Shown here piece by piece: positions 3,756 to 12,913 of a stretch of DNA of 64,000 nt. Source of the stretch: Candidatus Gottesmanbacteria bacterium (GTDB lineage: Bacteria; Patescibacteriota; Microgenomatia; UBA10105; UBA927); the NCBI GenBank assembly GCA_023245355.1, contig JAHFKN010000002.1, forward strand, positions 136,460 to 200,459. The letters run 5' to 3'. The notes under the pieces were generated by a model. The model was not told where the DNA came from. It was given only the letters and a program-made list of their open reading frames with translations, and ran no database searches. A program made the translations under genes and the position numbers. The number at the start of each line of letters is the position of its first letter. The stretch's first letter is position 1.

Positions 3756-4208
3756 ATGAGCACATTCCGGATTGCCAACAAAAAAGCCACATTCGACTAT
3801 GAGATCCTCGACAGGTTTGAAGCGGGGATAACCCTTACGGGCGCTGAGGTAAAGTCGCTCCGCGAGGGGCATGCGAAGCTGGACGGCTCATTTGTGCGCA
3901 TCATAGGCGCTGAGGCGTACCTTGTGAATGCGCAGATTTTTCCCTATCTGTACGCACGGCCGGAGGATTTTGATCCGAAGCGGACCCGGAAGCTTCTGCT
4001 TCACAGAAAAGAGCTTGTCAGCCTGAAAAGCAAGATAGAAGGCGCTGATTTGACGCTTATTCCCATAGCCTGGTATACTAAAGGCCCCTTTGTGAAGCTC
4101 GAGATAGGACTCGCCCGAGGGAAGAAACAGTACGAAAAACGGGAGAAAAAACGACGGGAAGACCAAAAACGGGAACTGGATCGGGAATTCAGGGGGAAAG
4201 TAAAGTAG
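3756..4208 (+). CDS. smpB: SsrA-binding protein SmpB
   Basis: KKATFDYEILDRFEAGITLTGAEVKSLREG...AWYTKG and a basic C-terminal tail are canonical SmpB. Confidence 0.9.
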   Translation: MSTFRIANKKATFDYEILDRFEAGITLTGAEVKSLREGHAKLDGSFVRIIGAEAYLVNAQIFPYLYARPEDFDPKRTRKLLLHRKELVSLKSKIEGADLTLIPIAWYTKGPFVKLEIGLARGKKQYEKREKKRREDQKRELDREFRGKVK

Positions 4209-4626
4209 GGGATGCATCAGATCGACGATGCGGGCACATTGACAAACTGCAAGCCGGCGATGACAAAAGAGCCGCAAAAATTCTTGTCAAATTATAATTG
4301 CTAACACACTTAGCGAGCTTGAGGAAAAGTACGCCTACCTTGTAGAACGACTTATGCTCAAGCGATCCCAGCTGGCTTACGCGCAAGCGTACGTTAACTG
4401 ACAGATCCATCCTGAATATTCTTTTGTCTGGTGAGGATATCAGGGTGTAAACAAAGCCAGGCCGTCAGGCGACTAATGATCGGTAGCCGCCGGAGTATAC
4501 ATTCGATCACCCCTCTGCGGAAGTATTTGTCCGCTTTATCTTTTGCAGAGAATCAAACGGACTACGCTTGTAGAAGTTTTCGACGTGTTCCTTCGGACCC
4601 GGGCTCAACGCCCGGCATCTCCACCC
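4208..4626 (+). ncRNA. ssrA: tmRNA (SsrA)
   Basis: 5' end GGGGATGCATCAGATCGACGATGCGGG resembles E. coli GGGGCTGATTCTGGATTCGACGGG. 3' end GGACCCGGGCTCAACGCCCGGCATCTCCACCCA resembles GGACGCGGGTTCAACTCCCGCCAGCTCCACCA. The acceptor helix GGGGATG/CATCTCC preserves the G3-U70 alanine identity pair with A73. The gene starts on the last base of the smpB stop codon. Confidence 0.75.
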
Positions 4627-4672
4627 ATTCGCGTCCCGCCCTTAACAAGGCGGGGTTCGGGCAAGCAATGTT

Positions 4673-4706
4673 GCCTCCTTGTACAATGGTGCAAGGAGGC
4701 TTTATT
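4673..4706 (+). terminator. intrinsic terminator-like hairpin that embeds the comF Shine-Dalgarno
   Basis: GCCTCCTTG-tacaatggtg-CAAGGAGGC followed by TTTATT. The 3' arm contains AAGGAGG, 7 nt upstream of the GTG at 4707. Confidence 0.5.
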
Positions 4707-5393
4707 GTGTCTGTTTTTGACCTGGTATTTCCCAGGAGGTGCGTGAGTTGCGGCATATTCGGCAGGTATTTTTGCGCTGCCTGCCGATTCAAAGTTCACC
4801 GTATTCCGTCCAATGAATCGATATGTCCGGTTTGTGAGCGTCCTGCTATAGACGGCGCGACGCATCCCCGGTGCCGGACACGCTACACATTAGACGGGCT
4901 TACCAGTTTTTTCCGTTACGAGGGAATTGTCCGTGTGGCCGTCAGAACGCTTAAATACCGGTTCGTGTCTGATCTGGGAGAGGAGTTTATTTCGCTTGTT
5001 TCCGATGAGTGTATCCAAAGCGTGTTACTCCGTGCCGGAGAACATGCCGTGCTTGTGCCCGTACCGCTTCATCGTACGCGGTTGTTGGAGCGGGGATTCA
5101 ATCAGGCAGAGATACTGGCGGTTGCGCTTTCCGGACGTTTGCATCTTCCTATAAGAACCGATATGCTATGCCGCACAAAGAAAACAGCGCCGCAGGTCGG
5201 GATGAAAAAGAGGGAAGCCAGGATAAAAAATATGACAGCGGTGTTTGCTGTCAGGTCCGGTATCGATCTAAAAAACGCCCATGTGGTGCTTTTTGATGAC
5301 GTATGTACGACGGGAGCGACCTTACGGTCCGCCGCCGGCGCGCTGAAACGGAGTGGGGCAGTGTCAGTTTGGGCCGTCACAATGGCCCGTTAG
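4707..5393 (+). CDS. comF: ComF family competence protein (PRTase domain)
   Basis: N-terminal LVFPRRCVSCG zinc-finger-like motif and C-terminal PRTase motif VVLFDDVCTTGATL. Start chosen at the GTG after AAGGAGG; the track ORF from 4431 reads through the tmRNA gene. Confidence 0.8.
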   Translation: MSVFDLVFPRRCVSCGIFGRYFCAACRFKVHRIPSNESICPVCERPAIDGATHPRCRTRYTLDGLTSFFRYEGIVRVAVRTLKYRFVSDLGEEFISLVSDECIQSVLLRAGEHAVLVPVPLHRTRLLERGFNQAEILAVALSGRLHLPIRTDMLCRTKKTAPQVGMKKREARIKNMTAVFAVRSGIDLKNAHVVLFDDVCTTGATLRSAAGALKRSGAVSVWAVTMAR

Positions 5394-6127: not shown

Positions 6128-6216
6128 GGAGGAGTCGCATAGCTTGGTCCATTGCGAGGGTTTGCTAAACCCTTGAGCCGATGAGGCTCGCGTGGGTTCG
6201 AATCCCACCTCCTCCG
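6128..6216 (+). tRNA. tRNA-Ser(GCU), type II
   Basis: Acceptor GGAGGAG/CTCCTCC, 3-bp D stem, anticodon loop TTGCTAA, long variable arm, T loop TTCGAAT, G73. Confidence 0.85.
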
Positions 6217-6283
6217 CCTTCGCTCGCCGAAGCGAGCTACGGCGGACGCAGTCCGCAAGTAGATCGCGAAGGAGAGATACGCA

Positions 6284-6525
6284 TGTATTACGTTTATATT
6301 CTTTCGTGCGCCGATGACGGATCGTATACAGGTTGCACCGATAATTTAAAAGATAGGATTAGTCGTCATCAAAAGGGAAACGTTCCCGCAACAAAAGATA
6401 GACGGCCTGTTAAGCTCATTTTCTACTTTGCGTTTTCTAATAAATATACCGCTTATAATTTTGAGAAATACCTTAAATCTGGTTCAGGAAGAGCGTTTTT
6501 GAAGAAGCATAAAGTAATTAATTAG
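6284..6525 (+). CDS. GIY-YIG nuclease superfamily protein
   Basis: MYYVYIL...DGSYTGCTDNLKDRISRHQKG is the GIY-YIG motif. RBS AAGGAGAG sits upstream. The track ORF from 6181 overlaps the tRNA and is rejected. Confidence 0.75.
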
Positions 6526-6584
6526 CCTCAATTTACCCACACAAAACTTGTTAATCTGGTAGAATACGTCGTTAAGCAGTAGCT

Positions 6585-6667
6585 GGAGGGGTGCTCCGAA
6601 TGGTAAGGAACCAGTCTTGAAAACTGGCGCCCGTAAGGGCTTGCAGGTTCGAGTCCTGTCCCCTCCG
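6585..6667 (+). tRNA. tRNA-Ser(UGA), type II
   Basis: Acceptor GGAGGGG/CCCCTCC, anticodon stem CCAGT/ACTGG with loop CTTGAAA, long variable arm, T loop TTCGAGT, G73. Confidence 0.8.
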
Positions 6668-6675
6668 CAGGCATA

Positions 6676-6760
6676 GGAGAGGTCGCATAGTGGCCTAGTG
6701 CAGCGGTTTACTAAACCGCCATATCGCAAGATATCGTGGGTTCAAATCCCACCCTCTCCG
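6676..6760 (+). tRNA. type II Ser-like tRNA with anticodon ACU (A34)
   Basis: Acceptor GGAGAGG/CCTCTCC, D stem GCA/TGC, anticodon stem GCGGT/ACCGC with 7-nt loop TTACTAA, variable-arm hairpin ATATC-GCAA-GATAT, T loop TTCAAAT, G73. Confidence 0.65.
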
Positions 6761-6768
6761 CCCTTATT

Positions 6769-7218
6769 ATGAAGCCGGGCATTGATTACATCGGTATTTC
6801 TGTCGGCGCACTTATCCTAAACGAGCAGGGAGAGATTTTTTTGACCAAACGCGGAAAGCGGGCCACAAACGAGCGCGGCACGTGGGAAATACCGGGCGGC
6901 AAAGTCCGGTTCGGCGAAACGCTGAAAGCTGCGGTTCTTCGCGAAATGCAGGAAGAGTACGGTGTTGAGATTGTGCTCGCCTATCAGTTTCCTGCTCAGG
7001 ATCATTTGTTGAAAGATGAAAAGCAGCATTGGGTTCCGACCTGCTTTATCGCAACTATTCCGCCCGGTCAGGAGCCCGTGATACGGGAGCCCGACAAGTG
7101 TGAAGCGATCGGCTGGTTCAGCCCGGACAAATTGCCGTCGCCGCTTTCGGTCATTACCAAACTGGATATTGCCACGTATCGCAAATATCTCACAAAGACG
7201 GACGTGAATATGATATAA
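6769..7218 (+). CDS. NUDIX hydrolase
   Basis: Nudix box GGKVRFGETLKAAVLREMQEEYGV. Start set at the ATG after the tRNA; the track ORF from 6736 overlaps the tRNA. Confidence 0.75.
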   Translation: MKPGIDYIGISVGALILNEQGEIFLTKRGKRATNERGTWEIPGGKVRFGETLKAAVLREMQEEYGVEIVLAYQFPAQDHLLKDEKQHWVPTCFIATIPPGQEPVIREPDKCEAIGWFSPDKLPSPLSVITKLDIATYRKYLTKTDVNMI

Positions 7219-7226
7219 AAGTATAT

Positions 7227-7751
7227 ATGGCAACGCACCCGCGCAATCAGGAGTCCAGGGAAGAACAGGAAGAGGTGTATGTAGCATGGACGTCTCCGTC
7301 GCGGCTGTTTAAAAAGCGGGACAGGGAGTTTTTTGTGAATATTTTTGCTATCGTCTTTTTACTTTCCGTCATTCTCGTATTTGTCCGTGAATTCGTGCTT
7401 ATCGCGACTGTTTTGTCCATCGTGTTTTTGATCTATGTGCTCTCTACCGTTCCCCCGGAAGACGTAAAACACCGGGTGACAAACCTTGGCATTGAGAGCG
7501 CCGGACATTTTTACCGGTGGGAGGAGTTTGCAGACTTCTGGTTTGATGAACAATGGGGGCAATATATGGTCGTGCTCCGTCCGTTTACGTCACCGAGAAT
7601 CATCGTACTTCTCGGCGACCAGAAAAGGGAAAAAATCAGGGAACTGATTGCGCGCCATATTCCGTTCCGCGAAGAACCCGACAGATCCTGGGTGGACAAT
7701 GCGGCCCGCTGGATATCGGAAAAAATCCCGCTAGAAAAGCCTCAAGCCTAG
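7227..7751 (+). CDS. hypothetical membrane protein
   Basis: 174 aa, acidic N-terminus, two TM helices, soluble C-terminal domain. No confident family. Confidence 0.5.
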   Translation: MATHPRNQESREEQEEVYVAWTSPSRLFKKRDREFFVNIFAIVFLLSVILVFVREFVLIATVLSIVFLIYVLSTVPPEDVKHRVTNLGIESAGHFYRWEEFADFWFDEQWGQYMVVLRPFTSPRIIVLLGDQKREKIRELIARHIPFREEPDRSWVDNAARWISEKIPLEKPQA

Positions 7752-7788
7752 TCACGGCCCGCCGTTTTGGTGTACAATACTTTCACTC

Positions 7789-7860
7789 GCGCCCATAGTT
7801 CAATGGATAGAATAGGAGCTTGCGGAGCTTCTGATACAGGTTCGACTCCTGTTGGGCGTA
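7789..7860 (+). tRNA. tRNA-Arg(GCG), tentative isotype
   Basis: Acceptor GCGCCCA/TGGGCGT with a G1-U72 wobble, D arm TAGTTCAATGGATAGAAT, anticodon stem GGAGC/GCTTC with loop TTGCGGA, T loop TTCGACT, A73. Confidence 0.7.
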
Positions 7861-7865
7861 CTCGT

Positions 7866-8279
7866 ATGACGATAGCCATTTGCGGAAGTCTCACGTTCCA
7901 CGCTGACATGCGTAGTGTCCAGGAAACGCTTACCAAATTGGGACACAAGGCGATTGTTCCTAAAAGCCTGCGCCTTATAGAGCATGAAGGGTTTCAAAAA
8001 CCGAAAACCGTTTCCGAGCGTCTGAAAGCGGAAGCCAAATACGATTTCATCCGCGAGCATTTCCGTGCAATTGAATCTTCTGATGCGATTCTGGTGGTAA
8101 ACCCTGCTCATCACGGGATTTCCGGGTATATCGGCGGAAACACATTTCTGGAAATGGGAGTTGCGTTCTATCTTCAAAAACCAATCTATCTTCTCAACCC
8201 CGTGCCGTCGATGGAGTATGAACTGGAACTTGCCGCCATGCATCCGGTCGTTCTGAACGGTGAGCTGGCGCGGATTTAA
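7866..8279 (+). CDS. nucleoside 2-deoxyribosyltransferase-like protein
   Basis: MTIAICGS N-terminus and YIGGNTFLEMGVAF matching the catalytic-Glu motif S/GxG(T/V)xxE(L/M)GxA of the NDT superfamily. The track ORF from 7767 overlaps the tRNA. Confidence 0.7.
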   Translation: MTIAICGSLTFHADMRSVQETLTKLGHKAIVPKSLRLIEHEGFQKPKTVSERLKAEAKYDFIREHFRAIESSDAILVVNPAHHGISGYIGGNTFLEMGVAFYLQKPIYLLNPVPSMEYELELAAMHPVVLNGELARI

Positions 8280-8324
8280 TTTTTCGTGTCCTGAACTGAT
8301 TTGCAGTATAATTGGCGGACTGAT

Positions 8325-8413
8325 GGAAAGGTGCCGGAGCGGCTAAACGGCCAGGTCTCGAAAACCTTGGGGGTCTTACAAGGCCCACGGGAGTTCAAAT
8401 CTCCCCCTTTCCG
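8325..8413 (+). tRNA. tRNA-Ser(CGA), type II
   Basis: Acceptor GGAAAGG/CCTTTCC, anticodon loop CTCGAAA, long variable arm, T arm GGGAG-TTCAAAT-CTCCC, G73. Confidence 0.8.
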
Positions 8414-8430
8414 CCCGAGAGTTAGGTATT

Positions 8431-8850
8431 ATGACAATTACTATTTGCGGTTCCATGCAATTTCATAAAGAGATGGCCTCAGTCCGTGACCAGTTGCTGG
8501 CTCGCGGATTCAAGGTGTTTGTGCCGGGAGAACTGGACGATATTCACAAAAACGAGTCCTACATGGATACGGATGAGGAGCGGATTACCGTGAAAATCGA
8601 ATACGATTTCATCCGCGAGCATTTCCGCAAAATTGAGCAGGCGGATGCAATTTTGATCCTCAATTACGAGAAAAAGGGAATCCCCGGATATATCGGCGGA
8701 AATACGTTTTTGGAAATGGGATATGCGTTCGGATTGGGGAAAAAGGTGTATTTGCTGTACGGGGTTCCCGACATGGATTATAAAACGGAAATGTTTGCAA
8801 TCCAGCCTGTCGTGATAGACGGGGATTTGTCCAGGATTCCACTTGCTTAA
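8431..8850 (+). CDS. nucleoside 2-deoxyribosyltransferase-like protein (paralog of 7866-8279)
   Basis: MTITICGS N-terminus and YIGGNTFLEMGYAF. It shares the YDFIREHFR block with the upstream paralog. Confidence 0.7.
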   Translation: MTITICGSMQFHKEMASVRDQLLARGFKVFVPGELDDIHKNESYMDTDEERITVKIEYDFIREHFRKIEQADAILILNYEKKGIPGYIGGNTFLEMGYAFGLGKKVYLLYGVPDMDYKTEMFAIQPVVIDGDLSRIPLA

Positions 8851-10931
8851 GGCTCCGTATCCGTGCCGTCGCGTTTTGTCTGATCTATAAAGGCCCGTAC
8901 AACAACCCCCCCGGCGTCTTTGAGAATCAGCCGCCCGCCGTTTATCCCTTTGAGAATCTCATTTTTTGTTTTTTCCGCGCCGCTTACCCCGTCATAATTC
9001 GTCGTCGAGTAATAATAGGTGCAGCATTCCGAATATGCAGTATTTTTGAGGTCTCCGATTTCTACAATATTATTGGGGTGTATCTCCCGAAAGAGCGCAT
9101 CGGTGAACGTCACGCCGGAAAAAGAGGCGAGAGCAACAACGTTCGGATCTGTTTTGGGATGGGGTATGACCCCGATGACAACGGGCCGGTCGGACAGGGT
9201 GTTGCCGACAATTCTCTGGTGGATGGCCACTTTGGGCTGACGTCCGTCAAACACCGTTTCCAGAAGCGATAGCAACGCTTCCTCTTTGGATTTGTCTATC
9301 TTCTCCGGTGTCACCCAAACGGCATACCCGGCGGTATCCTGCGCCAGCGGTTTTTTGTCGCTGGCATGTATCGTGCCGCGGCGGGCGGGTATGACGGTAG
9401 TTTCCAGTACGCGTGTTTCGGTAAGATCAGGAATCATATAGGACCATTGCCAGGGGATCCGCCATCTGCCGTCTTCGCGTACAAACGGGATGGAGACATT
9501 CCCGGTAAACGACCCCAGTTGCCGGGTAAAAAACGTCACGGTCGCTTTCAACGTCTGGGGAGAGGCAAAGCCCGACGGGAGCGCTCCTTCGGGAGTAATT
9601 TCTATATGTTCTATTTCTCCCTGCGCCATGGTGGTCAGTCCGAACCTGCGGAATGTTTCCCTGTCCGCCCGGGTGCGGGACGACATCGTCGTGTCTTCAT
9701 ACAGGTCGGTAAAAAACATATGCTCCATGTTGTATATGACCTGGGCGGCTGTCGCGCGCGGTGTGGTAATAAGCCTGGGGATCGTTGATGTTACGTTGAC
9801 CAATAGTAGTGCAAATACAAGGATGAACATGGTGCGTTTCGGAAGACGCATCAGGGTCGCGCCGGCAGCAATATAGAGAAGCGGCAGTACTGCGACAAGA
9901 TACCGCGTCCAGAACGGAATGATCGTATAGATGCCAATGATGAGACTCAGTGTGAAGAAAAGTATCCCCCACTTCTGATCCTTATTCCGCGAGCGGACCC
10001 ATGCCGCTATAGCCGCCAGAGAACTAAACAGCAGTACGGCCCAGGAAGGACTCCATTCGGCGGCCCGTTCCCACCCATGAGAAAACAGATTCTGATAGTA
10101 ACCGGCGATAAGTGTGGTGATACTGCTGCCCCATGTGGGGGAAATATTGCCGTGGCTGTAAAAGGATATCATCCATTTTTGTAGTTTTAACCAATCGATG
10201 AATGAGTATCCGTGCAGAAAATATCCGACGTACGGCAGGAGATATCCGGCAAATGCACACAGAAGAAACACGGCAATATCACGGATATATTTGGTTTGTT
10301 TCCATAGGTAAACGATGCCGGCCATAACAAGAACCGGGGCAAGAAGAGGGACTTTCGTTTCGGAAAACAGCCCGAGCAACAGTCCGCAAAGGGCAGAAAC
10401 AACTATCCGGCGGTTTTTTGTGAGCGAAGTCACCTGAAACATCACAATCAGGAAAAGCATGAGAAACAGCGCCTGAAGTGCGTCCATCATGGTCAGCGTG
10501 GCCTGATTGATGATGAGCGGGTCGGTGGCCAGCAGGACTGCAATAATAAGCGCCGGCAGCGTCTGCCGGAACACTATTTTCGACAGCACATACGTCGATG
10601 CGATGAGAAATATTGTGGTAAGAAACCCGAATATGTGCGCGTTGCCAAACAGCAGGATACATATGCCGATAAGATATTTACCCAGCGGCGGTACCTCGGC
10701 ATTCAGGGTGATCGGGTCTCCGCCGCGGATGAGCCGATACCCCTCATACATGTACAGGCCGTCATCACCGATGGTGCGTTGGGAAAGCGGAAGTTTCCAT
10801 TGTGACTGCTCATACTTGTCTTTCCAGTAAGTTTCATCGAAACGGGAAAAGAGAAGCGCTCTGTTCCAGTAGGTTACGAAGCTAAGGTACAGCAGCAGGA
10901 AAATGAAAAGAAATGCGGGCAATCGGCGCAT
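8847..10931 (-). CDS. GT-C fold (GT39/ArnT/PMT-like) membrane glycosyltransferase with a C-terminal extracytoplasmic domain
   Basis: About ten TM helices N-terminally with ArnT/PMT-like loops. The C-terminal roughly 270 aa is soluble and resembles a PBP dimerisation-type domain. Confidence 0.6.
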   Translation of the reverse strand: MRRLPAFLFIFLLLYLSFVTYWNRALLFSRFDETYWKDKYEQSQWKLPLSQRTIGDDGLYMYEGYRLIRGGDPITLNAEVPPLGKYLIGICILLFGNAHIFGFLTTIFLIASTYVLSKIVFRQTLPALIIAVLLATDPLIINQATLTMMDALQALFLMLFLIVMFQVTSLTKNRRIVVSALCGLLLGLFSETKVPLLAPVLVMAGIVYLWKQTKYIRDIAVFLLCAFAGYLLPYVGYFLHGYSFIDWLKLQKWMISFYSHGNISPTWGSSITTLIAGYYQNLFSHGWERAAEWSPSWAVLLFSSLAAIAAWVRSRNKDQKWGILFFTLSLIIGIYTIIPFWTRYLVAVLPLLYIAAGATLMRLPKRTMFILVFALLLVNVTSTIPRLITTPRATAAQVIYNMEHMFFTDLYEDTTMSSRTRADRETFRRFGLTTMAQGEIEHIEITPEGALPSGFASPQTLKATVTFFTRQLGSFTGNVSIPFVREDGRWRIPWQWSYMIPDLTETRVLETTVIPARRGTIHASDKKPLAQDTAGYAVWVTPEKIDKSKEEALLSLLETVFDGRQPKVAIHQRIVGNTLSDRPVVIGVIPHPKTDPNVVALASFSGVTFTDALFREIHPNNIVEIGDLKNTAYSECCTYYYSTTNYDGVSGAEKTKNEILKGINGGRLILKDAGGVVVRAFIDQTKRDGTDTEP

Positions 10932-10989
10932 AGGGTTGACCCCATTCTAGCAGAGAGCGGGAAACGGCGGTATAATACGCATGGAACTC

Positions 10990-11061
10990 GCTTCCGTAGT
11001 TCAATGGATAGAATGCGGCCCTCCGAAGGCTGTGATGGCAGTTCGACTCTGCCCGGGAGTA
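10990..11061 (+). tRNA. tRNA-Arg(CCG)
   Basis: Same D arm as the tRNA at 7789. Anticodon stem CGGCC/GGCTG with loop CTCCGAA, T arm GGCAG-TTCGACT-CTGCC, G1-U72. Confidence 0.75.
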
Positions 11062-11081
11062 CTTAGGGTAAACATGCACGT

Positions 11082-11678
11082 ATGAAAGATTCGAAACGGT
11101 TAACCAATTTAATCTATGAAGCCGCCAACGTGAAGCGGATGCTCCGGACGGGGTGGCAGCGCCTGGGTGATAACGAAGAAGGCGTAGGGGAACATTCATT
11201 TATGACAGCCGTCATCGCCTATCTTCTGGCCAAGCAGATAAACGATCAGAACGAATCCGGCAGGAAGGTTTCCATGGAAAAAATTCTTATTATGAGTATT
11301 TTTCATGATTTTCACGAAGGGCGGACCGGGGAAATGGACAAGGTTGCTAAACTGTATATGACACGGCATGAGGATAAAGCAAATATAGACATATTTGAAG
11401 GTATCGACGATGAATTATTAGCTCAGCTCAATGAATATGAAGCCAAAAAATCCCTGGAAGCGCAGGTGGTGTACGAGGCAAACGTCATCGCGTTCGGCGT
11501 AGAGTGCAAAATCCTGATGGAAAAGGGCAATACCCACGCGAAGGAATGGATGGACGCCAATTCGTTGCGCGTCAGGCTTCCTGAGTCGGTCGAGCTCATG
11601 ACTGCGTTAGCTATAACCGATTCACAGGATTGGTGGAAAGATATCCGGGAAGCGATCCACGAAGAATTTGCCAAATAA
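11082..11678 (+). CDS. HD-domain phosphohydrolase (YfbR-like 5'-nucleotidase family)
   Basis: HS...FHDFHEGRTGE metal-binding HD motif, 198 aa. Confidence 0.75.
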   Translation: MKDSKRLTNLIYEAANVKRMLRTGWQRLGDNEEGVGEHSFMTAVIAYLLAKQINDQNESGRKVSMEKILIMSIFHDFHEGRTGEMDKVAKLYMTRHEDKANIDIFEGIDDELLAQLNEYEAKKSLEAQVVYEANVIAFGVECKILMEKGNTHAKEWMDANSLRVRLPESVELMTALAITDSQDWWKDIREAIHEEFAK

Positions 11679-11681
11679 GTA

Positions 11682-12611
11682 TTACTCTCCCTGCGAAAAA
11701 AGTGCTGCCGCTGTTTTTTTGGTAATATGCTGACGGGTGGCAAACAGCACGCCGGTGATAATCAGCGCTGATCCCAGTACATACGTGAGGGAAAGCCGCT
11801 CTCCGAGAACAACCGCATTGATGGCAACGCCTACGACCAGCTGAATATATTCCTTGAGCGAGGCGGTTGAAGCTGACACATGCTGCACTCCCCACTGGAA
11901 GAGAAAAAATGTCGTTACCGTAATGCCGACTGCCGCAAACAGTAACACACCCATATATGTCGGGACATGAAGCGCCGGTGATAAAAGAGACTGTCCGGCA
12001 ACAGCGGATGCAAGGGTTGCCGCAGCCGTGACGACAAATATATTGATAGACGTAGAGAGCACGGGGGAGAAATCGCCCTGTGAGAGGATCCGCCGGGAGA
12101 AAATAATATACAGTGTCCAGCAAAGCAGGCTGCCGACCATCAGAAGATTGCCCAAAATACTCCCGCCCGTGCCGGTTCCTTTTTCAATCACGGGAAGCAG
12201 GACGATACATAAAGCACCCACCAATCCGATCAGGATGCCCGTGAGTTTGTTTTTTCCGATCGGTTCCTTGATGAAAAACGGGGAAAGCAACGCGACGCTA
12301 ATCGGAATGGCGGTGCCCAGGATACTTCCTGTATTTGCCGTGGTAAGGGAAAGACCGGTGTAGTAAAACAGGATATTCCCTGCATTGAATATGCCCAGCG
12401 GAAGGAGAGAGTGGAAATATCCTTTGGGTTTTTTCACCCGGAGAAAAAATGGGAGAATGATAAGCGATGCCAGGATAAACCGGTGGCTTGCGGCGACAAA
12501 CGGGGTAACTTCCATAAACAGCAGTTTGGATACAGATCCTGCGCTCGCCCAGAGGATTGCGGAAACAAATATTGCAAAAAGCGCTTTGTGACGCACTGTC
12601 ATACAATGCAT
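11682..12611 (-). CDS. EamA/DMT family transporter
   Basis: About 10 TM helices with duplicated EamA-like halves, 309 aa. Confidence 0.75.
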   Translation of the reverse strand: MHCMTVRHKALFAIFVSAILWASAGSVSKLLFMEVTPFVAASHRFILASLIILPFFLRVKKPKGYFHSLLPLGIFNAGNILFYYTGLSLTTANTGSILGTAIPISVALLSPFFIKEPIGKNKLTGILIGLVGALCIVLLPVIEKGTGTGGSILGNLLMVGSLLCWTLYIIFSRRILSQGDFSPVLSTSINIFVVTAAATLASAVAGQSLLSPALHVPTYMGVLLFAAVGITVTTFFLFQWGVQHVSASTASLKEYIQLVVGVAINAVVLGERLSLTYVLGSALIITGVLFATRQHITKKTAAALFSQGE

Positions 12612-12657
12612 TATAGCACCGGAAACAGCAGGAAAGATGGTATAATCAGAACCTATT

Positions 12658-12740
12658 GGAGGAGTGGCCCAGTGGCTACGGCATACGCTTGGAAAGCGTA
12701 CGGGAGCAATCCCTCGCAGGTTCGAGTCCTGTCTCCTCCG
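12658..12740 (+). tRNA. tRNA-Ser(GGA), type II
   Basis: Acceptor GGAGGAG/CTCCTCC, anticodon stem TACGC/GCGTA with loop TTGGAAA, long variable arm, T loop TTCGAGT, G73. Confidence 0.85.
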
Positions 12741-12913
12741 CAGTAGTTTCAGGGTTCTACCCGACCCGTTTACTACCCACGAATGGGTTGCTGTGGCTTG
12801 CTAAACTATCTTCATTTCAACATATTTCGTTTCAAGAGCCTGGAGAAAGCGTGCTTATGTTTGACGGATGTACGAGTGTTTTGTACGATAAGGACGGAAA
12901 AATTTGAAAGGAG

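What the first reader, a model, noticed from the sequence alone, without database searches (positions are those of the whole stretch)
6676..6760. Fifth serine-type tRNA with an ACU (A34) anticodon next to the canonical Ser(UGA)
The window contains all four standard tRNA-Ser isoacceptors (GCU, UGA, CGA, GGA) plus this additional type-II tRNA. It has Ser identity features (long variable arm, G73, 3-bp D stem), but its anticodon loop is TTACTAA, i.e. ACU. A34 anticodons are rare in bacteria outside tRNA-Arg(ACG). A Ser-tRNA with ACU would read AGU and, if the A were deaminated to inosine, would also misread AGA Arg codons. It lies only 8 nt after tRNA-Ser(UGA), so it may be a recent duplicate with an altered anticodon.
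Basis: seen in the sequence. Interest (0 to 1): 0.55.

Follow-up and report, generated by a model that had tools for sequence, protein, structure and literature searches.

The report
Conserved serine tRNA with ACU anticodon
This is a real serine tRNA gene with an ACU anticodon, a type that reviews call universally absent from life, and it is conserved in a whole group of ultrasmall groundwater and soil bacteria (Microgenomates), where it most likely reads only the serine codon AGU.

Summary
Window 6676-6760 (+) is a genuine type-II tRNA-Ser gene with anticodon ACU (A34 = base 6710). ARAGORN and the Rfam tRNA model (54.3 bits) place the anticodon identically. It is not an assembly error or a recent mutation. 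The window is Gottesmanbacteria-like (CPR/Patescibacteria). The same gene lies in the same smpB-linked Ser/Arg tRNA cluster in 17 other Microgenomates genomes (SmpB identity 43-83%). The anticodon loop is invariant in the 18 synteny-derived copies. Their stems pair in 99.4% of cells, and 9 of 20 pairs show compensatory changes. It is an old paralogue of one tRNA-Ser(GCU) backbone, not a copy of the adjacent tRNA-Ser(UGA), and GCU is nearly always kept beside it. AGA in the window aligns with Arg/Lys codons, AGU with Ser, and AGA is not depleted, so the code is standard. The clade uses tRNA-Arg(GCG) instead of ACG. The loop reads UACU, not the UACG/UAMG motif that TadA edits. An engineered ACU tRNA in E. 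coli read only AGU. Best reading: an authentic A34, AGU-dedicated Ser tRNA. An I34 form is not excluded, because a TadA-like deaminase family exists in the clade. I found no prior description.

The parts
6676..6760 (+). tRNA-Ser(ACU) gene, positions 1-73 (G73 at 6760). CC follows at 6761-6762, so no full CCA is encoded.
   Evidence: ARAGORN; Rfam tRNA 54.3 bits with alignment; fold; 17 syntenic orthologues
6710..6712 (+). Anticodon ACT (A34 C35 U36) inside the invariant loop context GTTTACTAAAC (6706-6716)
   Evidence: invariant columns in alignment A2
6585..6667 (+). tRNA-Ser(UGA), 7-8 nt upstream. It is probably co-transcribed with the ACU gene but has a different backbone.
   Evidence: A TGA gene lies less than 50 nt upstream of ACT on the same strand in 17 metagenome loci and in L002, L003, L004 and L063.
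6128..6218 (+). tRNA-Ser(GCU), the G34 isoacceptor of the same AGY box and the closest paralogue of the ACU gene in this genome
   Evidence: A GCU gene lies within the locus in 24 of 29 well-flanked ACU loci.
7789..7861 (+). tRNA-Arg(GCG). It takes the place of the usual bacterial tRNA-Arg(ACG), the canonical TadA/inosine substrate.
   Evidence: 53 Arg(GCG) genes and no Arg(ACG) in the held loci; PMC8629427.
8324..8416 (+). tRNA-Ser(CGA), member of the conserved Ser/Arg tRNA cluster
   Evidence: ARAGORN only; not reported by Rfam at the gathering score
10990..11062 (+). tRNA-Arg(CCG), member of the cluster
12658..12741 (+). tRNA-Ser(GGA), member of the cluster
6769..7218 (+). NUDIX hydrolase gene whose ATG starts 7-9 nt after the tRNA 3' end. 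The same junction occurs in L002.

Best explanation
The feature is a functional elongator tRNA-Ser carrying a genomically encoded A34 (anticodon ACU). It is one member of an old gene family that arose in Microgenomates (CPR) by duplication of a tRNA-Ser(GCU)-type gene followed by a G34-to-A change. Serylation by SerRS does not depend on the anticodon. The Ser identity set (G1-C72, G2-C71, A3-U70, C11-G24, long variable arm, G73) is intact, so the tRNA should carry serine. I infer that A34 stays an authentic adenosine, because this clade does not use the inosine system. The tRNA would then read AGU by a Watson-Crick A34:U3 pair. AGC (and AGU by wobble) is left to the retained tRNA-Ser(GCU), and AGA/AGG to tRNA-Arg(UCU/CCU). 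What is shown: the gene, its conservation, its structural covariation, its Ser-type features, its paralogy to GCU, the standard meaning of AGU and AGA, and the co-retention of GCU. What is inferred: serylation, absence of inosine, and AGU-only decoding. What is unexplained: the selective advantage. AGU is not enriched in genomes that carry the gene.
For: ARAGORN and the Infernal/Rfam model agree on gene and anticodon. There are 18 syntenic copies in genomes with SmpB identity down to 43%, labelled Gottesman-, Levy- and Woesebacteria. In alignment A2 the loop GTTTACTAAAC is invariant, 99.4% of stem cells pair, 9 of 20 pairs have changes on both sides, and 0 of 500 shuffles reach the observed covariation score. 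At least 118 further copies occur on metagenome contigs. Pooled with the genome copies they give 126 distinct parsed sequences, 99.6% paired, with G1-C72 and A3-U70 invariant, G2-C71 in 125 of 126, and 18 anticodon-stem variants. The T-arm is the same as in the GCU paralogue, so nothing suggests exclusion from EF-Tu. ACU copies mostly cluster together, next to one of three GCU backbones. GCU is kept next to ACU in 24 of 29 well-flanked loci, so ACU does not replace G34. Window AGA codons align to Arg 45%, Lys 25% and Ser 3.5% in orthologues, while AGU aligns to Ser 45%. AGA is not depleted in ACU-bearing loci. tRNA-Arg(UCU) and tRNA-Arg(CCU) sit on the same contigs as ACU in L170 and L111. Only Arg(GCG) is present, never ACG, and CPR is reported to lack tRNA-Arg(ACG) (PMC8629427). 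Known TadA targets need UACG or UAMG, whereas this loop is UACU (PMC11472039). An engineered ACU tRNA in E. coli read AGU at 9.4%, AGC and AGA below detection, and AGG at 0.36% (PMC11066159).
Against: There is no expression, charging or modification data. A conserved TadA-like deaminase family exists in Microgenomates (L006, L030, L206; at least 249 homologues). Its substrate is unknown in a clade without tRNA-Arg(ACG). No codon-usage benefit is visible: window AGU 183 versus AGC 206, and the AGU share does not differ significantly between loci with and without the gene (t = 1.29; Mann-Whitney p = 0.40). The gene is missing from the syntenic locus in many relatives, including the closest one, L001, so it is dispensable or mobile within genomes. 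Three short tRNA-array contigs (L111, L170, L201) carry ACU without GCU. If that holds genome-wide, ACU would also have to read AGC. Older in vitro work cited in PMC11066159 found promiscuous reading by an unmodified A34 glycine tRNA.
Confidence: 0.62

Rival explanations
1. A34 is deaminated to inosine by the clade's TadA-like deaminase. This gives tRNA-Ser(ICU), which reads AGU and AGC and weakly AGA. Misreading of AGA would be held in check by competition from tRNA-Arg(UCU).
For: A conserved deaminase family of about 147 aa exists in Microgenomates. Its best NCBIfam match is TadA, and it aligns end to end with E. coli and S. aureus TadA structures. It has no obvious tRNA-Arg(ACG) substrate in this clade. 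A34-C35 is shared with tRNA-Arg(ACG). L111 carries a second A34 tRNA, Leu(AAG), of the kind that is I34-modified in Firmicutes (PMC11472039). Arrays L111, L170 and L201 lack GCU.
Against: The TadA match is far below the family cut-off (52-55 versus 150 bits). The protein scores equally against guanosine, guanine and deoxycytidine deaminases, and it has HGE/HSE instead of HAE. The three cluster-linked copies lie in loci without ACU, and no copy was found in the window or in any ACU-bearing locus. Known TadA targets have G36, whereas this loop has U36 (PMC11472039). In known I34 systems A34 replaces the G34 isoacceptor (PMC8007984), but here GCU is retained. AGA is frequent, behaves as Arg, and is not depleted where ACU is present. 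CPR is reported not to use I34 (PMC8629427).
Confidence: 0.18
2. The tRNA carries a different, unknown modification of A34, or serves a specialised non-ribosomal role (a serine donor for cell-wall or lipid aminoacylation, or a regulatory tRNA) rather than routine AGU decoding.
For: There is no codon-usage signature of benefit. Presence among close relatives is patchy. The selective reason for keeping a second AGU reader is unexplained.
Against: The anticodon and whole loop are invariant, which points to codon reading or anticodon recognition. The T-arm and acceptor are identical in type to the GCU paralogue, without the weakened T-stem pairs known from non-proteinogenic cell-wall tRNAs (established knowledge from Staphylococcus tRNA-Gly). 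No Fem/MurM-type or MprF-type gene is linked in the window.
Confidence: 0.12
3. It is a sequencing or assembly error, or a private mutation or decaying pseudogene of a tRNA-Ser(GCU) copy.
For: A single G-to-A change separates GCT from ACT. A few GCU genes (L039, L063, L013, L074) group with the ACU backbone in the tree, so switches at position 34 have happened.
Against: A34 is present in all 18 independent syntenic copies and in at least 118 metagenome contigs from many samples. Stems are kept by compensatory substitutions.
Confidence: 0.01
4. It is a phage- or mobile-element-borne tRNA that happens to be inserted here.
For: One IMG/VR contig (L201) with PNKP-phosphatase and RlaP genes and a weak portal match carries the family inside a tRNA array. 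L111 and L170 are dense tRNA arrays. A GIY-YIG ORF lies in the cluster.
Against: In the window and 17 genomes the gene sits at a conserved chromosomal position, in the Ser/Arg tRNA cluster downstream of smpB-tmRNA-comF, among housekeeping genes. GC content there equals the genome average.
Confidence: 0.03

Closest known systems
Bacterial tRNA-Ser(GCU), the standard AGY decoder
   Same: Type-II tRNA with G1-C72, G2-C71, A3-U70, C11-G24, G73 and a long variable arm. The loop context U32 U33 N34 C35 U36 A37 A38 with G30-C40 and U31-A39 is identical. One of the three GCU backbones in this clade shares the D-arm and T-arm.
   Different: Position 34 is A instead of G, invariantly. The variable arm and the base at position 26 differ. 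The gene coexists with GCU rather than replacing it.
tRNA-Arg(ACG) with TadA, and tRNA-Leu(AAG) of Streptococcus/Oenococcus (bacterial I34 tRNAs)
   Same: A genomically encoded A34, and A34-C35 shared with Arg(ACG).
   Different: Those tRNAs serve four-codon boxes, have G36 (UACG/UAMG motif, PMC11472039), and replace the G34 isoacceptor (PMC8007984). Here the box is split (AGY Ser / AGR Arg), position 36 is U, GCU is retained, and the clade has Arg(GCG) instead of Arg(ACG) (PMC8629427).
Natural unmodified-A34 tRNAs: Mycoplasma tRNA-Thr(AGU), yeast mitochondrial tRNA-Arg(ACG)
   Same: An authentic adenosine at the wobble position in an organism or lineage without the I34 system (as summarised in PMC11066159).
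   Different: Those tRNAs serve four-codon boxes, where promiscuous reading does no harm. ACU sits in a split box, where misreading AGR would put Ser in place of Arg.
Engineered M. jannaschii orthogonal tRNA with ACU anticodon (Schmitt, Tittle and Fisk 2024, PMC11066159)
   Same: The same anticodon. It was shown in E. coli to read AGU (9.4%) with AGC and AGA below detection and AGG at 0.36%. This is the behaviour proposed here.
   Different: It is an artificial tRNA-Tyr body in a foreign host, not a natural Ser tRNA. Its modification state in CPR cells is unknown.
Sporadic predicted Ser-ACT genes in eukaryotic gene sets (for example the human 'Ser-ACT' used in tRF studies, PMC12143625)
   Same: The same anticodon assigned by gene predictors.
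   Different: These are single genes without demonstrated conservation or decoding role. The present family is clade-wide, syntenic, and under structural selection.

Membership tests
Bacterial type-II tRNA-Ser (SerRS substrate) | Canonical cloverleaf: 7-bp acceptor stem, 5-bp anticodon stem, 7-nt loop with U33 and a purine at 37, 5-bp T stem, GTTCRA T-loop | tested here: met
   ARAGORN; Rfam tRNA 54.3 bits with alignment; 99.4% paired with covariation
Bacterial type-II tRNA-Ser (SerRS substrate) | Long variable arm with a stem of 4 bp or more | tested here: met
   5-bp stem AUAUC/GAUAU in the fold. Variable arms of roughly 14-20 nt with complementary halves in the copies listed.
Bacterial type-II tRNA-Ser (SerRS substrate) | Acceptor identity G1-C72, G2-C71, A3-U70 and discriminator G73; C11-G24 in the D stem (E. 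coli/T. thermophilus identity set, established knowledge) | tested here: met
   Invariant in the 18 aligned copies. In 126 distinct copies G1-C72 and A3-U70 are invariant and G2-C71 holds in 125.
Bacterial type-II tRNA-Ser (SerRS substrate) | Charged with serine by SerRS | not testable with these tools
   Needs an aminoacylation assay or acylated-tRNA sequencing
Standard AGY decoder tRNA-Ser(GCU) | G at wobble position 34 | tested here: not met
   A34 in all 18 synteny-derived copies
TadA-dependent I34 tRNAs | Anticodon loop motif U33-A34-(C/A)35-G36 | tested here: not met
   The loop is UUACUAA, so position 36 is U. Motif taken from PMC11472039.
TadA-dependent I34 tRNAs | The A34 gene replaces the G34 isoacceptor of the same box; the box is four-fold (or Ile three-fold) | tested here: not met
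   GCU is present beside ACU in 24 of 29 well-flanked loci. The AGN box is split between Ser and Arg, and AGA aligns with Arg.
TadA-dependent I34 tRNAs | A TadA orthologue encoded in the same genome | tested here: inconclusive
   None in the window or in ACU-bearing loci. A TadA-like family exists in relatives but scores below the NCBIfam cut-off and has ambiguous PDB affinities. Whole genomes could not be read.
TadA-dependent I34 tRNAs | Inosine at position 34 in the mature tRNA | not testable with these tools
   Needs tRNA-seq or LC-MS
Non-proteinogenic (cell-wall donor) tRNAs | Weakened T-stem pairs or altered D/T loops that lower EF-Tu binding (established knowledge from Staphylococcus tRNA-Gly) | tested here: not met
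   T stem GUGGG/CCCAC and loop UUCAAAU match the GCU paralogue, and the D-loop GG is present
allo-tRNAs / tRNA-Sec-like Ser-identity tRNAs | 8/4 or 9/3 (or 8/5) acceptor/T-stem geometry | tested here: not met
   Standard 7/5 geometry

The most novel reading that the evidence does not exclude
The TadA-like deaminase family of Microgenomates, a clade with no tRNA-Arg(ACG), has tRNA-Ser(ACU) as its natural substrate. This would produce ICU in a split codon box. It would be the first inosine-34 tRNA in a two-codon box. It would imply either tolerated AGA Ser/Arg ambiguity or an unknown way of blocking I:A pairing in these ribosomes. A milder version is much more likely. In that version this is the first clade-wide natural tRNA with an authentic A34 in a split box, breaking a rule stated as universal.
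Probability: 0.12. Interest if true: 0.9.

Novelty: new variant of a known kind. Interest (0 to 1): 0.7.

Why it matters
Reviews of tRNA gene content state that ANN anticodons in split codon boxes are universally missing, and specifically that A34 is universally missing from the Ser-Arg box (PMC8007984). The usual explanation is that A34, or its product I34, would misread the neighbouring amino acid's codons. Here a whole bacterial lineage keeps such a tRNA under clear purifying selection, alongside the normal G34 isoacceptor, with AGA still meaning Arg. That provides a natural system for several open questions. One is how an authentic A34 decodes in vivo. Another is why A34 is otherwise avoided. 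A third is how CPR bacteria, which also use tRNA-Arg(GCG) and tRNA-Ile(UAU), organise wobble decoding with a reduced set of modifications. There are practical consequences too. tRNA annotation pipelines and genetic-code screens should not treat Ser-ACT calls in Patescibacteria as artefacts. The natural ACU/AGU pair may also interest work on sense-codon reassignment.

Tried and rejected
1. AGA reassigned to Ser or avoided: rejected. AGA is 7.6 per 1000 codons in the window and aligns with Arg/Lys codons in orthologues. It is equally frequent in loci with and without the gene.

2. AGU enrichment as the reason for the extra tRNA: not found. The AGU share is 0.47 in the window, and there is no significant difference between loci with and without the gene.

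3. Copy of the neighbouring tRNA-Ser(UGA): rejected by alignment.

5. Linking the TadA-like deaminase to the tRNA by gene neighbourhood: six contig look-ups showed variable contexts and no ACU tRNA nearby. This is uninformative rather than negative.

6. Classifying that deaminase with NCBIfam, Pfam and PDB sequence search: ambiguous between TadA and guanosine, guanine or deoxycytidine deaminases.

7. Literature searches for a prior description: nothing on tRNA-Ser(ACU) in bacteria or CPR. One search returned only noise, apart from a human 'Ser-ACT' tRF label. Rafels-Ybern et al. 2019 is not held in the library.

8. Promoter scan: only weak consensus matches. A possible extended -10 (TGGTAGAAT) upstream of the UGA tRNA was seen by eye, which is not evidence of function.

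9. Alternative anticodon registers (CUA, or a 9-nt loop): rejected, because they violate U33 and the covariance-model alignment.

Full report
**Observation.** ARAGORN finds seven tRNA genes in the window, including tRNA-Ser(act) at 6676-6762 with the anticodon at 6710-6712. It also finds all four ordinary Ser isoacceptors (GCT 6128, TGA 6585, CGA 8324, GGA 12658) and Arg GCG and Arg CCG. The sequence reads GGAGAGG TC GCA...TGC A GCGGT TTACTAA ACCGC [19-nt variable region] GTGGG TTCAAAT CCCAC CCTCTCC G. The Rfam tRNA covariance model matches 6676-6760 at 54.3 bits. That is the best score among the four Ser tRNAs Rfam reports in the window. Its alignment fixes the 5-bp stem and the 7-nt loop UUACUAA, so the anticodon is ACU by a second, independent method. 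The single-sequence fold is a cloverleaf with a 5-bp variable-arm stem (z = -4.1).

**Where the window comes from.** SmpB (3756-4208) sits next to a tmRNA (Rfam, 4208-4626), ComF-like, thiamine pyrophosphokinase, GIY-YIG, NUDIX, nucleoside deoxyribosyltransferase-like and HD-domain genes. Further along are DnaG, RpoD, PilB/PilC and BipA. A scan of one genome per GTDB species with SmpB returned 80 loci. The best hits (87-70% identity) are almost all labelled Candidatus Gottesmanbacteria or carry evident mislabels from third-party assemblies. More distant hits are labelled Levybacteria, Woesebacteria and Microgenomates. The window is therefore a chromosomal stretch of a Gottesmanbacteria-like member of the Microgenomates (CPR/Patescibacteria).

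**Not an error, and conserved.** ARAGORN on those loci finds tRNA-Ser(act) in 17 of them besides the window. These are L002, L003, L004, L022, L023, L025, L026, L027, L029, L033, L034, L035, L036, L037, L039, L050 and L063. The gene usually lies in the same cluster, often directly after tRNA-Ser(tga) as in the window. These loci were fetched through SmpB, so they are unbiased with respect to the anticodon.

- In the alignment of the 18 copies the loop context GTTTACTAAAC is invariant, while the stems vary.
- On the cloverleaf, 99.4% of cells form standard pairs and 9 of 20 pairs show changes on both sides (47 cells).
- No shuffle out of 500 reaches the observed pairing or covariation score, and slid controls drop to 42-63% pairing.

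ARAGORN calls tRNA-Ser(act) in 118 of the 121 new loci (the 120 plus one viral contig), giving 105 distinct sequences. These copies were selected for the loop, so they say nothing about A34 conservation. They do show breadth. Pooled with the genome copies they give 126 distinct parsed sequences with 99.6% pairing, 18 anticodon-stem variants, invariant G1-C72 and A3-U70, and G2-C71 in 125 of 126. This is a gene family under purifying selection for tRNA structure and for the ACU loop.

**Origin.** The ACU gene does not resemble its 8-nt neighbour tRNA-Ser(UGA). It resembles tRNA-Ser(GCU) at 6128, sharing GTCGCATAG, the same loop context apart from base 34, the same T-arm and similar acceptor ends. 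Across the clade tRNA-Ser(GCU) comes in three quite different backbones at the same syntenic slot. In a neighbour-joining tree with the wobble column masked, the ACU genes mostly cluster together next to one of those backbones. A few GCU genes (L039, L063, L013, L074) fall inside the ACU group, so switches at position 34 or gene conversion have occurred. The tree rests on about 85 nt and is only indicative. This is an old paralogue of the AGY decoder.

**What it decodes.** All Ser identity elements known from E. coli and T. thermophilus are present and conserved, and SerRS ignores the anticodon (established knowledge). I therefore infer that the tRNA carries serine, and ACU is complementary to the Ser codon AGU. 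I tested whether the code around it is unusual.

- In about 19,000 window codons, AGU = 183, AGC = 206, AGA = 145 and AGG = 117.
- Window AGA codons align in orthologues to Arg 45%, Lys 25% and Ser 3.5%, like AGG and CGN. AGU aligns to Ser 45%, then Asn and Thr.
- AGA frequency is the same in loci with and without the gene (11.4 versus 11.0 per 1000).
- The AGU share does not differ significantly after correcting for overall NNU/NNC bias (t = 1.29; p = 0.40).

So the code is standard, AGA is not avoided, and there is no codon-usage signature that explains the extra tRNA.

**Adenosine or inosine?** This cannot be measured here, but several lines point to an unmodified A34.

- Every locus of the clade has tRNA-Arg(GCG) and none has tRNA-Arg(ACG). 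Shulgina and Eddy note that tRNA-Arg(ACG) appears to be lacking in CPR and that I34 is not used by some deep-branching bacteria (PMC8629427).
- All known TadA targets share UACG, or UAMG in Streptococcus (PMC11472039). This loop is UACU.
- In known bacterial I34 cases the A34 gene replaces the G34 gene of the box (PMC8007984). Here GCU lies within the locus in 24 of 29 ACU loci with at least 3 kb on both sides, at a median distance of 663 bp. This suggests that ACU cannot do GCU's job of reading AGC.
- AGA is abundant and means Arg. Dedicated tRNA-Arg(UCU) or tRNA-Arg(CCU) genes sit on the same contigs as ACU in L170 and L111.
- An orthogonal tRNA with an ACU anticodon in E. coli read AGU (9.4%), with AGC and AGA below detection and AGG at 0.36% (PMC11066159). 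That is the AGU-only behaviour that would make such a tRNA harmless in a split box.

**Against this.** Microgenomates do encode a conserved TadA-like deaminase of about 147 aa (L006 14894-15346, L030 14700-15206, L206 10001-10450; at least 249 homologues).

- Its best NCBIfam match is TadA, but at 52-55 bits against a cut-off of 150.
- It scores about equally against TadA, guanosine, guanine and deoxycytidine deaminase structures, although only the E. coli and S. aureus TadA alignments run end to end.
- It has HGE/HSE instead of HAE.
- The three copies that lie in the tRNA cluster region are in loci without ACU, and other copies have unrelated neighbourhoods.

I could not read whole genomes, so co-occurrence remains open. 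Short tRNA-array contigs (L111, L170 and the putative phage fragment L201) carry ACU without GCU, and L111 also has Leu(AAG). These observations keep the inosine rival alive at about 0.2.

**Comparison with what is known.** The review by Ehrlich et al. states that all ANN anticodons in split boxes (except Ile) are universally missing. It states specifically that A34 is universally missing in the Ser-Arg box (PMC8007984). Schmitt et al. call unmodified A34 tRNAs 'exceedingly rare' (PMC11066159). My searches of the held library found no description of tRNA-Ser(ACU) in bacteria or CPR. The only 'Ser-ACT' I met is a human gene label used in a tRF study (PMC12143625). The library is incomplete, and Rafels-Ybern et al. 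2019 is not held, so prior mention elsewhere cannot be excluded. The tRNA passes every testable membership criterion for bacterial tRNA-Ser. It fails the defining G34 of the AGY decoder. It also fails three of the testable criteria for TadA-type I34 tRNAs (G36, replacement of G34, unsplit box).

**Verdict.** This is a real, conserved and widespread tRNA-Ser isoacceptor with an anticodon class thought not to exist in nature. It most likely acts as an authentic-A34, AGU-dedicated decoder alongside tRNA-Ser(GCU). The selective reason for keeping it is unexplained. One speculation, marked as such, is that a Watson-Crick AGU reader protects AGU from near-cognate competition in organisms with few wobble modifications. 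I rate it a new variant of a known kind, with interest 0.7.

Noticed in passing
window 6128-12741; same order in L001-L035, L063, L134, L171 and others: All five Ser tRNAs and two Arg tRNAs form one conserved super-cluster downstream of smpB-tmRNA-comF. The order is Ser GCU, Ser UGA, Ser ACU, Arg GCG, Ser CGA, Arg CCG, Ser GGA. The tRNAs are interleaved with small nucleotide-salvage-type genes (NUDIX, nucleoside deoxyribosyltransferase-like, HD).
   Followed up: partly
window 7789-7861; all related loci: tRNA-Arg(GCG) is used instead of the usual bacterial tRNA-Arg(ACG). There are 53 GCG genes and no ACG gene in the held loci. This agrees with the remark on CPR in PMC8629427.
   Followed up: partly
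L006 14894-15346; L030 14700-15206; L206 10001-10450: A conserved TadA-like deaminase family of about 147 aa (HGE/HSE motif, at least 249 homologues) occurs in a clade that lacks the canonical TadA substrate. Its real substrate is unknown. The three copies linked to the tRNA cluster lie in loci without the ACU tRNA.
   Followed up: partly
L111 1-4813; L170 1-2700: These are dense tRNA arrays (21 tRNAs in 4.8 kb; 11 in 2.7 kb) carrying an identical tRNA-Ser(ACU) between Cys GCA and Arg GCG. No Ser GCU is on either contig. L111 also has a second A34 tRNA, Leu(AAG).
   Followed up: partly
L201 1-7413 (IMG/VR contig): This is a putative phage fragment. A tRNA array (Pro, Ser ACU, Asn, Leu, Leu) lies next to a PNKP-phosphatase gene and an RlaP RNA-repair-type gene, plus a weak portal-protein match. 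The ACU tRNA family therefore also travels on a probable virus of these bacteria.
   Followed up: partly
L018, L048, L051, L054, L056, L074, L075, L077, L078, L111, L170, L206: tRNA-Ile(UAU) genes are frequent in these CPR loci. This anticodon is rare in bacteria, which normally use a lysidine-modified CAU.
   Followed up: no
GCU slot of the cluster, e.g. window 6128-6218, L001 12487-12572, L010 9151-9242: Three unrelated backbones of tRNA-Ser(GCU) occupy the same syntenic position in different Microgenomates. This points to repeated replacement of the gene.
   Followed up: partly
window 4208-4626: Rfam finds a tmRNA (96.9 bits) directly after smpB, but ARAGORN does not report it in the window. 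The mechanical ORF 4431-5393 (ComF-like) overlaps its 3' part, so the real start of that gene is probably further downstream.
   Followed up: no
window 56000-64000: GC content drops to 0.36-0.38 against about 0.50 elsewhere. The region holds an Mrr-type restriction endonuclease (59502-60626) and a 'Beta protein' family gene (61800-62963). It is probably a horizontally acquired island.
   Followed up: no
window 8324-8416: tRNA-Ser(CGA) is called by ARAGORN (93 nt, with an extra 5' base) but does not reach the Rfam tRNA gathering score in the whole-window scan.
   Followed up: no
window 6181-6525: A small GIY-YIG nuclease ORF lies between tRNA-Ser(GCU) and tRNA-Ser(UGA). Its mechanical start overlaps the 3' end of the GCU tRNA. 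GIY-YIG ORFs recur near tRNAs in related loci (L203, L206).
   Followed up: no
window and 38 related loci: AGU is under-used relative to other NNU codons in every locus examined (log-odds about -0.5 to -0.65), whether or not the ACU tRNA is present.
   Followed up: yes
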